Positions 3,001 to 6,000 of a stretch of DNA of 7,867 nucleotides are shown here, piece after piece. Each line of letters starts with the position of its first letter. The first letter of the stretch is position 1. This DNA is from a virus (lineage: Duplodnaviria > Heunggongvirae > Uroviricota > Caudoviricetes), in the IMG/VR virus record IMGVR_UViG_2703718868_000013, positions 1 through 7,867 of that record; one strand, 5' to 3'. Made by a program: the position numbers.

Positions 3001-6000
3001 CCATCCGCGATAACGCCTTCGTAATACTCACGTTGCTCGTTGAGTTTTGATTTTTCTGCTTCCAGCTCATTCAGTAGAGCCAGCACAACCTGCGGCGTGG
3101 CCTTCGCGCGAAACGCCGCCAATCTTCGAGCTGTTGCCACTGTTTGTATTGCGGCTGCCGCCTTACGCAGTGCCTGATAGTTGATCTCGCTCATTTTTCT
3201 CTTCACTCCGGTATACAAGGATTACTACGCCCCCTCTGCTAATTGCGCGAGCTGGATCCCCTGGTTCCATGCCGTCAATCCCGAAGGCTTCGAAAAATGC
3301 ATCCATTGCCTTCTGGCGTTGATCCTGCTTACGGCGTTTATTCCATTTTTTCATGAACAACAGTGACAGCCATCGTCCGCTGCAGAACATGATGTAGAAA
3401 TAACCAAGGAGCGCCAGACCGACATTAAGAGCCGTATCTATGGTTAGTTGTGAGTCAGTCGCCATCAGACTTTCTTACCTGTTTAAGTAACTGGTTGAAC
3501 ATAACGCTCAGGGGATTGCCGTATCCAAACGGCAGATTGTTTACGCGATACAGAATCATTTTGTTTTTTTCACCAGTTCGTACAATTAACCCATTCCACA
3601 GTAACCGTGATAATTCATTACTGATAGAAACTGCGCTTCTTCCAAGTGCGAGGGATATATCTTCTCTACTGCAATCTGGATTTTCCTGGATATATTCGAT
3701 AACGGTCATGTGGTCCACTTTAGTTAATGGCGGTTTCTGATTGCATGCTATTAGTATTCATTTCGTTAATAATTTCATCCAGAAGGAGTTCAAGCCCTTC
3801 TCGACCCATATCTGAAAGAATGAAACCTTTATCAGGGGAAGTAGTGAGCATTTTCTGATAAAGAAATAGTGCTCTACCCATTCCTTCTGCCTCGCCGTAT
3901 TTTTGAATTAAATTCCATTCAATATACTGTTGTAAGGCAAAACGAATGGGGCCGGGATATATCGTCATAACCCCATGCTTCCCGTTATATATTACGGCGC
4001 GATCTGTTGTTCCGTGTTCGTTTGGGATATCAATAGTGCCATTCTTGTTTTCTTCTTCGTTGATGAATGTCGTCACGTACAACCAGCGCCACTGGGCTAC
4101 CTTCATCTCAACAGGGAGTTTACCCAGTAATCCTGCATTGTCGGCTTGTGCGAGGCATTGAAGGATTTGCAAACCTTTCACATTAGGATGATCGAATTCA
4201 CCTGCATCCAGACGGCGGATTGCGTCGTGATAATCAATAGTCATACTGCCAGTTCGTATACCTGTGGCTGTTGCTTCAGCCTGGAATTCAGTGTATTGCA
4301 TGATATTTACTCCTCATCTTCATCTGCTGGTGCAATAACGTCATATCCTGCCTTTTCTGCAATAAACAGGAATGTTGAAAGACTTCCTACAAGTTCATCG
4401 TCATGAACATGACGAATTAATATTACTTTCCCGTTTTTGATGGTCAGCAATACTCTGGTTTGCTCGTGTTCTGCTGTTTTCTGATGCATTATTATCTCCC
4501 GTATGCTTTACGCAGAAACAAGCAGGCAATATGCATGTAATTTTTCCCGTGCTGTGCAATAAGGCAGGCTGTTTTGTGTGATGCCTTATGTTTTATAAAG
4601 GTCATATAAAACCTCCTGTGGATTAAGGGTGTGATAATCCCCGGCGATTAAGCCGTAATATATTATCCGGAGATGACTTGTTCTATTTAACTGGTTAGTT
4701 CTTTTTCAGCAGCTGCTTCAGCATAGCAACGTGCAAATTCAAGAACTTCATCACCTGTTCTTTTTATTGCATCGTTGTCTGACATTTGTAATACAACAAC
4801 TGCGCATAATAAATTATGGATATTGTTTGCAAAGGAATCCGGTGCCAGGCATAAGCCTTCATACTTATCATGGATATTGCCAGTCATTGTTGCTACTCCT
4901 TTGCTTCTGATTTTCCCGTTAACAACCACATCAAGTTACAATTAAGCGCACTGGCCAGTGGTACTATCTGAGCAGCTGGAACTTCATGGATGCCGCATTC
5001 CCAGTCGTTTATGGGGTCACTATAGGTATGAATCATGCGGGCAAGATCAGATTCGGTTAATCCCAGTTTTGTACGGGCGCTTTTGATGCGTGCGCCAATA
5101 CTTTCCACATGGACTTCAGGCACATTTACGCGAATAACTGACTCGCTGTTTTTTTCACTCAGCAGAGAAAGCGGATCGCATCCTAGGACGTTTGCCAGGG
5201 GGATAAGCATGCTGATGGTTGGCTCGTACTCTCCACTCTCCCATTGCAGAATAATCTCTTCGTCAAGATCGAGTAGTCTGGCTAGTTCGGTAGTCGTCAA
5301 GCCGCAGGCTTCACGTTTGGTGCGTATGCAGGCTATCTTGTTGCCTGAGCGAATAGAATGTTGTTGTTTTGTCGATGCGATCGCTAAAGCATATTCATGA
5401 GTAAATTCCAGCACATCAAACCCAACCTCTTTTAATCGCGTATCATCCAGGAGGTTGAAGGTGCGAACAGCACTGAGCAGGTTTGCGATGGTTAATGCAA
5501 AAGAATCGAGGTCTAAATCATCACATAAAACCTTGTTGTAAGTATTGAGGCTACATGTTTTTGGTGTTGTTTGTAAGGCTTCCATATCATCACCATGCAA
5601 TTCTAAGTTGAAGTTAATCAATATATAATTGATGGTGAGATATTATGTGTCAGGTAAACTAGTGTCAATCAAAAATTGATAAACTTGATTTTTTTGTAGT
5701 GGGTGACAAATAATTTAATTTAAAATCAACAACTAACCAAATCTGTTGATATTGAATGGTACAGATGAGATGACTTTTGACTGGATATACAGCAGCGCCA
5801 TTCCCTCTTTTTCGATGCTCCACGGCTGATAGTTGGGATTGTCTGATAAGACCATGATCTTGCTTCCAATTTTTTGAAGTCGTTTGACGTAACATTCGCC
5901 ATCAAAGCAAAATGCATAAATGCCATCACCGTCAAAATAAGTTACTGTTTTATCTAAAAACAGTAAGTCACCTGGGGCGATTGTTGGGGCCATGCTGTCC

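What the first reader, a model, noticed from the sequence alone, without database searches (positions are those of the whole stretch)
3455..4489. Translationally coupled 60-aa / 193-aa / wHTH genes of unknown function in the early-left arm
Three consecutive genes with 1-10 nt junctions and RBSs embedded in the preceding gene's 3-prime end: a 60-aa protein with an acidic tail, a 193-aa protein with no recognisable domain, and an 84-aa winged-HTH protein. They sit between immunity and integration modules, where lambdoid phages usually carry host-takeover or anti-defence genes (gam, kil, cIII, ral) or exclusion genes (sieB), and no canonical recombination gene is present instead. The arrangement fits a toxin/antitoxin-like or defence/counter-defence module with its own regulator, but the sequence does not say which.
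Basis: partly seen in the sequence, partly recalled or inferred. Interest (0 to 1): 0.6.

Follow-up and report, generated by a model that had tools for sequence, protein, structure and literature searches.

The report
Unknown early genes in Stx-like prophage
The three genes are real, conserved genes of unknown function in the early-left operon of a Shiga-toxin-phage-like E. coli prophage, but they are a stretch of a longer mosaic gene string, not a self-contained toxin/antitoxin or defence module with its own regulator.

Summary
The three minus-strand ORFs exist as described: 60 aa at 4307-4489, 193 aa at 3720-4301 and an 84-aa wHTH at 3455-3709. All are under purifying selection. The tight junctions are not special to them. 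Coupling continues upstream to a conserved 37-aa ORF (4492-4605) and downstream to a DUF4752 membrane protein (3163-3465). All lie in one leftward operon behind a pL-like promoter (5668-5640).

Across 247 related loci the trio is not a unit.
- p37, p60 and p193 always travel together in the window's clade (80/80).
- The wHTH is present in 54/80 and is otherwise often replaced by a Band7 gene (25/80). Its usual partner is DUF4752.
- In more distant phages p60 sits upstream of a ParE-like gene (58/59) and mostly without p193 (3/59).
- p193 also occurs without p60, in phages and in PICI/P4-like satellites next to the primase gene.

p193 (PHROG 1515) gives a confident AlphaFold model with no meaningful PDB match, no Pfam, NCBIfam or PADLOC hit, and is acidic. 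No toxin domain, own promoter or operator was found. The missing recombination genes fit the published "no Rec module, Chi-rich" class of lambdoid phages.

The likeliest reading is that these are independent early accessory proteins acting on the host. Their function is unproven. Interest is modest.

The parts
5640..5668 (-). pL-like sigma-70 promoter (TTGACA-17-TAATAT), between the cI stop and the first leftward gene
   Evidence: 10/12 match. It lies in the AT-rich gap 5622-5732.
4893..5621 (-). First pL gene: 242-aa protein with two HTH_3 domains (PHROG 4836), in the position lambda gives to N
4687..4929 (-). 80-aa protein (PHROG 4587). It overlaps the previous gene by 37 nt and is related to that gene's N-terminal region.
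4606..4686 (-). 81-nt intergenic gap and upstream mosaic boundary of the p37-p60-p193 block. No convincing promoter, terminator or stable hairpin.
   Evidence: (z -1.5)
4492..4605 (-). p37: conserved basic 37-aa ORF with an AGGAGG RBS. It is the near-universal first gene of the cassette.
   Evidence: dN/dS 0.07-0.10. Present in 80/80, 78/80 and 57/59 loci of three phage sets.
4307..4489 (-). p60: 60-aa protein (PHROG 340) with a beta-hairpin plus helix and an acidic tail
   Evidence: AF2 pLDDT 81. Family alignment.
3720..4301 (-). p193: 193-aa acidic two-domain protein (PHROG 1515), an orphan family
3720..3743 (-). Downstream mosaic breakpoint inside the last codons of p193. Stx2-type phages share sequence only from 3743 upward.
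   Evidence: query 444-1401. tblastn matches stop at residue 186 in loci lacking the wHTH.
3455..3709 (-). 84-aa winged-HTH protein (PHROG 1687), below the MarR Pfam threshold
   Evidence: Present in 54/80 loci of the clade.
3163..3465 (-). DUF4752 100-aa protein with an N-terminal hydrophobic segment. It overlaps the wHTH gene by 11 nt and is that gene's usual partner.
   Evidence: E 4.5e-39

Best explanation
The finding is a section of the repressor-controlled early-left (pL) operon of a lambdoid, Stx-phage-like E. coli prophage.

Operon layout. Transcription starts at a pL-like promoter next to cI. It runs leftward through a double-HTH gene, p80, p37, p60, p193, the wHTH gene, DUF4752 and Ea22-like genes to xis and int. 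Ribosomes pass from gene to gene across 1-10-nt spacers or overlaps.

Two mosaic units inside the string.
- p37-p60-p193 is inherited as one block.
- wHTH-DUF4752 is a second, exchangeable block.

A wider cassette. The same families recur in many enterobacterial prophages as optional members of a fixed-order cassette: p37 > PHROG 8959 > PHROG 1737 > p60 > ParE-like > PHROG 1886 > p193 > (wHTH-DUF4752, or Band7, or BroN/ORF6N) > PHROG 1001. This window carries a compact version of it.

Function (inferred, not shown). The products are made only after induction or infection. They probably act separately as accessory proteins on host targets.
- p193 is a soluble, acidic, two-domain protein with no meaningful match among solved structures. 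It is shared by phages and by PICI/P4-like satellites. It most likely binds and modulates a host protein (host takeover or counter-defence).
- p60 is a small protein-binding domain.
- The wHTH is a small DNA-binding protein tied to the DUF4752 membrane protein, not a regulator of p60-p193.

Confidence. About 0.8 for the operon and mosaic description. About 0.35 for the host-directed accessory function.
For: Operon:
- The promoter lies at 5668-5640(-) and no other strong minus-strand promoter or terminator lies before the trio.
- Junctions are 2, 5, 1-10 and -11 nt.

Real genes: purifying selection. There are 125 clusters of p193 relatives among 1.8 billion representative proteins.

Mosaic units:
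- In 80 loci of the window's clade, p37 and p60 are present in 80/80, the wHTH in 54, DUF4752 in 46 and Band7 in 25.
- The nucleotide breakpoint is at 3743.
- Upstream, p80 identity drops to about 53% while p37, p60 and p193 stay at 86-95%.
- p60-p193 adjacency, with an ATGA overlap, persists at 48-56% and 64-69% identity, for example in phiP27 L07/L06.

Fixed-order cassette.

Separability:
- Loci anchored on a p60 relative carry p193 in 3/59 and the ParE-like gene in 58/59.
- The 46%-identity clade carries p60 in 49/80 and the wHTH in 0/80.
- Satellites carry p193 in 8/8 and p60 in 0/8. In them p193 sits in the operon upstream of the primase, directly adjacent in L247.

p193 properties:
- The AF2 model has pLDDT 86.6 and pTM 0.83.
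- No Pfam family reaches its cut-off for any of 56 members.
- The family has median pI 4.8 and net charge -11.
- The C-terminal domain is shared with PHROG 1737.

No defence or toxin hits.
Against: - No experiment or homology bears on function. The host-directed role rests only on position, expression logic and the phage-plus-satellite distribution.
- p60-p193 coupling conserved across saturated synonymous divergence could mean that the two do work together in this clade.
- An internal promoter below the scan's threshold cannot be excluded. GC content is slightly lower here (0.39-0.44 against 0.46-0.51 in the flanks), as is typical of morons.
- Sampling of loci was anchored on particular queries, so the counts are not unbiased frequencies.
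Confidence: 0.55

Rival explanations
1. Toxin/antitoxin-like or abortive-infection defence module. p60 would be the antitoxin, p193 the toxin or effector and the wHTH the dedicated regulator. It would be expressed in the lysogen to exclude other phages or to stabilise the prophage.
For: - The genes are small and tightly coupled, with an HTH gene adjacent.
- In relatives, p60-family genes lie directly upstream of and overlap a ParE-like (PF24732) gene. This holds in 58 of 59 loci anchored on a p60 relative.
- GC content is slightly lower than in the flanks.
Against: - The window has no ParE-like gene.
- p193 has no toxin, nuclease or defence domain in Pfam, NCBIfam or PADLOC.
- The wHTH is missing from 26/80 loci carrying near-identical p60-p193, and from all distant loci.
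- No own promoter or operator was found.
- The genes lie inside the cI-repressed pL operon.
- p193 occurs without p60 in 31/80 loci of the 46% clade and in all the satellites.
Confidence: 0.08
2. Cryptic recombination or anti-RecBCD function. It would stand in for the missing Red/Gam or Erf/Abc module in the slot where lambdoid phages carry it.
For: - The position is the one a Rec module occupies in lambdoid phages, and no known recombination gene was found among the scanned ORFs of the left arm.
- p193 is acidic, as DNA mimics are.
- In satellites it lies next to the primase gene.
Against: - The window carries 4 Chi sites against 0.21 expected, with 0 of 200 shuffles reaching 4.
- A close relative carries 10 in 49.6 kb against 2.2 expected.
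[quoted passage not shown] In that class no universally present gene of unknown function was found in the early-left region (PMC12315714). A RecBCD inhibitor would work against that strategy.
- The net charge of -10 is far from what I recall for classic DNA mimics (own knowledge).
Confidence: 0.07
3. p60 and p193 form a two-protein complex: a small adaptor or inhibitor plus a larger effector. The complex would carry out one early function. The variable genes inserted between them in other clades would be add-ons.
For: - The two genes are adjacent with a 5-nt spacer or an ATGA overlap in all 80 loci of the clade. This persists after divergence to 48-56% (p60) and 64-69% (p193), with synonymous sites near saturation.
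- Both occur in the same operon in 49/80 loci of the 46% clade.
Against: - They separate in both directions. p193 is present in only 3/59 loci anchored on a p60 relative, and p60 in 0/8 satellites.
- Where both occur in distant clades they are separated by one or two other genes.
- Prediction of the complex could not be run.
Confidence: 0.2
4. p193 is a replication or partition accessory factor of mobile elements. The argument is that it precedes the primase-helicase gene in satellites.
For: It lies immediately upstream of a TOPRIM/DUF927 primase gene in L247, and upstream with three small genes in between (D5_N/DUF5906 type) in L082-L084.
Against: - In lambdoid phages it lies in the pL operon, far from the O/P-type replication genes of the right operon.
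- It is an optional gene.
- It is acidic and has no DNA-binding signature.
Confidence: 0.08

Closest known systems
Accessory genes of the lambda/P22 early-left (pL) operon (ral, kil, cIII, gam, sieB, the ea genes)
   Same: - Same position between immunity and xis/int, and same leftward repressor-controlled operon.
- The genes are small, densely packed, individually dispensable in evolution and mosaic.
   Different: No sequence or fold similarity to any of them was detected. No function has been demonstrated.
[quoted passage not shown]
   Same: - The scanned ORFs of the left arm show no recombination or RecBCD-inhibitor gene.
- Chi sites are strongly over-represented.
   Different: - That paper does not mention phiP27 or Shiga-toxin phages, and these gene families did not come up in the passages searched.
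- The early-left genes it describes for LLS (yfbR/yfdQ/yfdP-like) are different.
Type II toxin-antitoxin operons of the ParDE/RelBE kind, including three-component systems with a separate regulator (PaaR-PaaA-ParE; own knowledge)
   Same: - Small overlapping genes with an HTH gene nearby.
- Relatives of p60 overlap a downstream ParE-like gene.
   Different: - The window has no toxin-fold gene.
- The HTH gene lies downstream and is not conserved with the pair.
- No autoregulated promoter was found.
- p60 matches no antitoxin family.
MarR-family winged-helix regulators
   Same: The 84-aa protein aligns to the wHTH core of MarR_2, Crp-like and other wHTH models. Some GenBank records label it MarR.
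   Different: - It scores 20.3 bits against a cut-off of 27.
- At 84 aa it is far shorter than MarR proteins, which as I recall are about 140-150 aa with dimerisation helices on both sides (own knowledge).
- In PHROGs 1687 and 19053 the matching region is the C-terminal part of longer proteins.
phiP27 ORFs L07/L06 and the hypothetical proteins of O145/O111 Stx1a/Stx2a phages (LC567819 and others)
   Same: - Orthologues in the same order: phiP27 L07 (51% to p60) and L06 (64-67% to p193).
- 95% nucleotide identity across the whole region to Stx1a phages.
   Different: All are annotated only as hypothetical. phiP27 and the Stx2 phages carry a Band7/SPFH gene in place of wHTH-DUF4752.

Membership tests
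Type II toxin-antitoxin system | One partner has a recognised toxin fold or domain | tested here: not met
Type II toxin-antitoxin system | The gene pair or triplet is conserved as a unit across genomes | tested here: not met
   The wHTH is present in 54/80 close loci and 0/80 distant loci. p193 is present in 3/59 loci anchored on a p60 relative. p60 is present in 0/8 satellites.
Type II toxin-antitoxin system | Own autoregulated promoter and operator upstream of the first gene | tested here: inconclusive
   The consensus scan finds no minus-strand promoter in 4490-4700 and there is no inverted repeat there. Weak promoters would be missed.
Type II toxin-antitoxin system | Toxicity of one product, neutralised by the partner | not testable with these tools
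   Needs expression experiments.
Known anti-phage defence systems (PADLOC-DB 2.0) | Match to a model of a defence-system component | tested here: not met
   No hits for p60 or p193. The wHTH gives only weak generic hits to the wHTH ends of CARF/CasR models.
MarR family (Pfam MarR_2) | Score above the Pfam gathering threshold, and full-length architecture | tested here: not met
   20.3 bits against a cut-off of 27. Only 47 residues align, in an 84-aa protein.
PHROG 1515 / PHROG 340 / PHROG 1687 (phage protein families; the first two of unknown function) | Significant full-length profile match | tested here: met
   p193 E 8e-92 over residues 1-191. p60 E 6.3e-22. wHTH E 5.6e-25. All 56 diverse p193 relatives hit PHROG 1515.
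Lambdoid early-left (pL) operon genes | Same strand and contiguous with a promoter next to the cI-type repressor gene, running to xis-int | tested here: met
   cI has S24 plus HTH domains. The promoter lies at 5668-5640(-). All genes are on the minus strand down to xis (DUF1233) and int.
No-Rec-module, Chi-rich lambdoid phages (PMC12315714) | No recombination or RecBCD-inhibitor genes in the early-left operon, and Chi over-representation | tested here: met
   No such Pfam domain in the scanned left-arm ORFs. 4 Chi sites against 0.21 expected in the window. 10 against 2.2 expected in the relative LC567819. The rest of this prophage was not available.

The most novel reading that the evidence does not exclude
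p37-p60-p193 may be a previously unrecognised early module directed at the host (counter-defence or host takeover).
- p193 is shared by Shiga-toxin-type lambdoid prophages and by PICI/P4-like satellites.
- It belongs to a wider fixed-order accessory cassette that also holds a ParE-like gene. The cassette's members may target different host systems.
Probability: 0.2. Interest if true: 0.6.

Novelty: new member of a known kind. Interest (0 to 1): 0.3.

Why it matters
These genes, or part of this region, are present in about 13% of complete E. coli genomes (715/5426) and in many Stx1 and Stx2 prophages, yet none has a known function. If p193 or its neighbours modulate host defences or physiology during induction, they could affect Stx-phage spread and toxin release. 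A function for p193 would also annotate a protein family shared by phages and satellites.

As it stands the result is mainly a correction. The unit to study is p37-p60-p193, with wHTH-DUF4752 as a separate unit, not the proposed trio. The absence of recombination genes is explained by an already described phage class.

Tried and rejected
Homology and fold searches that found nothing:
- Sequence searches of the PDB with p193, p60, the wHTH and a 56-sequence p193 profile gave nothing significant.
- Foldseek against BFVD gave no hit at E<=0.001.
- Pfam and PHROG scans of 56 p193 relatives returned only unknown-function PHROGs 1515, 5991 and 1737.
- hhalign of the p60 family against the 140-aa PHROG 1886 family, which replaces it upstream of p193 in another clade, showed no relation.

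Jobs that could not be run:
- The AFDB50 fold library was not available.

Other searches:
- The plasmid search found hits mostly in ~37-41-kb and 12-23-kb non-mobilizable records that look like circularised phages or satellites. All 23 records are typed non-mobilizable, so there is no sign of conjugative plasmids.
- Rfam found nothing in the trio or in its upstream gap. The RNA fold of the gap is not significant.
- Literature searches on phiP27 L06/L07, PHROG numbers, DUF4752 and Stx1a phage early regions found nothing relevant.
- Cluster look-up shows that every source names these proteins "hypothetical", apart from one generic UniRef name ("Prophage protein") and the MarR label on the 84-aa protein.

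Ideas considered and rejected:
- SieB-like exclusion protein: p193 appears to have no hydrophobic segment (read from the sequence).
- ArdA/Ocr-type DNA mimic: the charge is too modest and no family match exists.

Full report
**Observation**

The window carries the left arm of a lambdoid prophage. On the minus strand lie int (75-1361), xis (1395-1649, DUF1233), DUF4222, an Ead/Ea22-DUF551 protein and DUF4752 (3163-3465). Next come the three genes of the finding, then a 37-aa ORF, an 80-aa ORF, a 242-aa double-HTH protein and an S24-type cI repressor (5733-6452). cro and a Roi/ORF6N-like gene are on the plus strand.

- p60 is 4307-4489 and ends ...PADEDEE.
- p193 is 3720-4301.
- The wHTH protein is 3455-3709 (84 aa from the ATG).

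The p60-p193 spacer is 5 nt. The Shine-Dalgarno GAGGAG is made of the last two Glu codons of p60. The p193-wHTH spacer is 10 nt with only a weak GTGGA.

All are under purifying selection. dN/dS is 0.12 for p193 and 0.17-0.24 for the wHTH. For p60, pN is 0.34 against pS 0.77.

The region is 95% identical to Stx1a-converting phages of O145/O111 strains, where the genes are annotated as hypothetical or "MarR family". Some part of it occurs in 715 of 5426 complete E. coli genomes. The exact proteins exist in E. coli records under the name "hypothetical protein".

**The trio is not bounded**

The same tight packing continues on both sides.
- A 37-aa ORF (4492-4605, AGGAGG RBS) ends 2 nt before p60.
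- DUF4752 overlaps the wHTH gene by 11 nt.
- The double-HTH gene and p80 overlap by 37 nt.

A pL-like promoter (TTGACA-17-TAATAT) lies at 5668-5640(-), between cI and the double-HTH gene. No comparable minus-strand promoter, terminator, stable hairpin or inverted repeat lies in the 81-nt gap before p37. The simplest reading is one cI-repressed leftward operon in which the finding is an arbitrary three-gene slice.

**Conservation**

I collected 247 related loci from viral contigs, assemblies and GenBank phages. I classified their plus-strand ORFs with iterated HMM searches.

*The window's clade (80 loci anchored on p193, 68-97% identity).*
- p37 and p60 are present in 80/80.
- The wHTH is present in 54/80 and DUF4752 in 46/80.
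- A Band7/SPFH gene is present in 25/80, in place of the wHTH.
- The nucleotide breakpoint lies at 3743, inside the last codons of p193. tblastn matches stop at residue 186 in loci lacking the wHTH.
- Upstream, p80 drops to about 53% identity while p37, p60 and p193 stay at 86-95%.
- The inherited block is therefore p37-p60-p193, and wHTH-DUF4752 is a second, exchangeable block.
- p60-p193 adjacency, with an ATGA overlap, persists at 48-56% and 64-69% identity, for example in phiP27 L07/L06.

*Beyond that clade the genes separate.*
- In 80 loci anchored on a 46%-identical p193, p60 is present in 49, a ParE-like gene (PF24732) in 67, a 140-aa PHROG 1886 gene in 69, and the wHTH in none.
- In 59 loci anchored on a Salmonella/Citrobacter p60 relative, p193 is present in 3 and the ParE-like gene in 58. 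In the loci inspected it lies directly downstream of p60 and overlaps it.
- In 8 PICI/P4-like satellite loci p193 is present without p60 or the wHTH. It sits in the operon upstream of the primase, directly adjacent in L247.

*A fixed order.* Across all architectures the order is the same while each member is optional: p37 > PHROG 8959 > PHROG 1737 > p60 (one or two copies) > ParE-like > PHROG 1886 > p193 > (wHTH-DUF4752, or Band7, or BroN/ORF6N) > PHROG 1001 > ... xis int.

**The proteins**

*p193.*
- It matches PHROG 1515 (E 8e-92, unknown function) and nothing above threshold in Pfam, NCBIfam or PADLOC.
- A full HMMER scan of 1.8 billion representatives finds only 125 clusters, nearly all about 190-230 aa and standalone. 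All 56 relatives scanned hit only unknown-function PHROGs.
- The C-terminal half (residues 116-190) is homologous to the C-terminal half of PHROG 1737 proteins, which are encoded in the same operons of other clades (E 2.5e-7).
- The family is acidic, with median pI 4.8 and net charge -11.
- Most members end in a conserved G-[ML]-P-x-x-P-V-x-H tail. The window's copy has lost it, because the mosaic breakpoint falls there.

*p60.*
- It matches PHROG 340. It aligns weakly to the C-terminal part of two "anti-repressor" PHROGs.
- Its acidic tail is not conserved in relatives.

*The 84-aa protein.* It gives consistent wHTH hits, but MarR_2 scores 20.3 bits against a cut-off of 27. It is a generic small winged-helix protein, not a demonstrable MarR.

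**Interpretation**

A toxin/antitoxin or defence module with its own regulator is not supported.
- There is no toxin or defence domain.
- There is no own promoter or operator.
- There is no conservation as a unit.
- The genes lie in a repressed lytic operon.

The only toxin/antitoxin-like signal is the p60/ParE-like pairing in relatives, and the window lacks that gene.

The window has 4 Chi sites (0.21 expected; 0 of 200 shuffles reach 4). A close relative has 10 (2.2 expected). [quoted passage not shown] In that class no universally present unknown early-left gene was found (PMC12315714). That also argues against a RecBCD inhibitor.

What remains is inference. The genes are early-expressed and optional, and p193 is shared with satellites that use different replication machinery. 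That fits accessory proteins acting on host targets (host takeover or counter-defence). p60-p193 may cooperate within the Escherichia clade.

**Verdict**

The "module" interpretation is largely wrong. The genes are catalogued but functionally unknown members of the ordinary class of lambdoid early-left accessory genes. p193 is a reasonable target for structural and functional work, but nothing here shows an unusual mechanism.

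Noticed in passing
window 4492-4605 (-): A conserved basic 37-aa ORF (MTFIKHKASHKTACLIAQHGKNYMHIACLFLRKAYGR) with an AGGAGG RBS. Its ...AYKTA...LFLRKAYG[RKIV] core is kept at 50-100% identity. It is the first gene of the cassette in most loci of three phage sets (80/80, 78/80, 57/59), with dN/dS 0.07-0.10. Its final GGGAGA codons serve as the RBS of the next gene. It is interrupted by a premature stop in L085.
   Followed up: partly
window 1769, 6950, 7361 (+) and 7786 (-); L248 (LC567819): There are four Chi sites (GCTGGTGG) in 7.9 kb, against 0.21 expected. 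A related Stx1a phage has 10 in 49.6 kb, against 2.2 expected, with 8 on one strand and clustered in the early-right region. This fits the published no-Rec-module, Chi-rich class of lambdoid phages.
   Followed up: partly
window 4893-5621 (-) and 4687-4929 (-): The first gene after the pL-like promoter, where lambda has N, is a 242-aa protein with two HTH_3 domains (PHROG 4836, "CII-like regulator"). No N-like gene was seen. The following 80-aa gene overlaps it by 37 nt and is related to its N-terminal region (cross-hits between PHROGs 4587 and 4836).
   Followed up: no
window 7832-7867 (+): A partial match to the Hfq-binding sRNA isrK (Rfam RF01394), model positions 1-36 of 77, E 5.7e-4. It is cut off by the end of the window.
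   Followed up: no
L085, L092-L094, L100 and about 130 further loci: A 73-75-aa ParE-like gene (PF24732, E 2.3e-20) sits in the same early-left cassette of related prophages. A p60-family gene lies directly upstream in 90 of 137 loci, and a 140-aa PHROG 1886 gene directly downstream in 62 of 137. Fifteen loci were scored as having neither, though for L100-L102 that is an artefact of the 70-nt distance cut-off (they carry an overlapping p60 relative). It could be a toxin-like element inside a lytic operon.
   Followed up: partly
L082-L084, L242-L247: p193 relatives occur in 12-23-kb PICI/P4-like satellites (L082 carries AlpA, AntA, DUF4222 and a primase-helicase; L247 carries AntA/AntB, DUF4222, Icd-like, PerC, primase and int). 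There they lie upstream of the primase gene, directly in L247, and are often followed by a 75-aa PHROG 1001 gene. That gene also occurs in the phage cassettes. Some of these elements are deposited as small "plasmids".
   Followed up: partly
P0051 (336 aa); L082 4870-5220: One p193 relative is fused to a domain that in L082 is a separate 116-aa gene (PHROG 37628) lying two genes downstream. This could be a real fusion or an assembly frameshift.
   Followed up: no
window 4159-4180: A 22-bp near-palindrome (TGAAGGATTTGCAAACCTTTCA) lies inside the p193 coding sequence. It may be chance.
   Followed up: no
L085 5418-5984: A 188-aa early-left gene matches PHROG 3007 (labelled RusA-like). It also matches, weakly, the central domain of the DNA polymerase III beta clamp and a phage processivity-factor family. 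The PHROG label looks doubtful.
   Followed up: no
protein cluster look-up (cluster 6): The 90%-identity cluster that holds the window's 84-aa wHTH protein also lists 193-aa p193 sequences and has a p193 sequence as representative. This looks like a clustering artefact in the database, not biology.
   Followed up: no
window 2133-3218 (-): A 361-aa ORF combines an Ead/Ea22-like N-terminus and a DUF551 C-terminus. It spans what is annotated as several shorter genes in the related phage LC567819, so gene fusion or fission occurs in this part of the arm.
   Followed up: no
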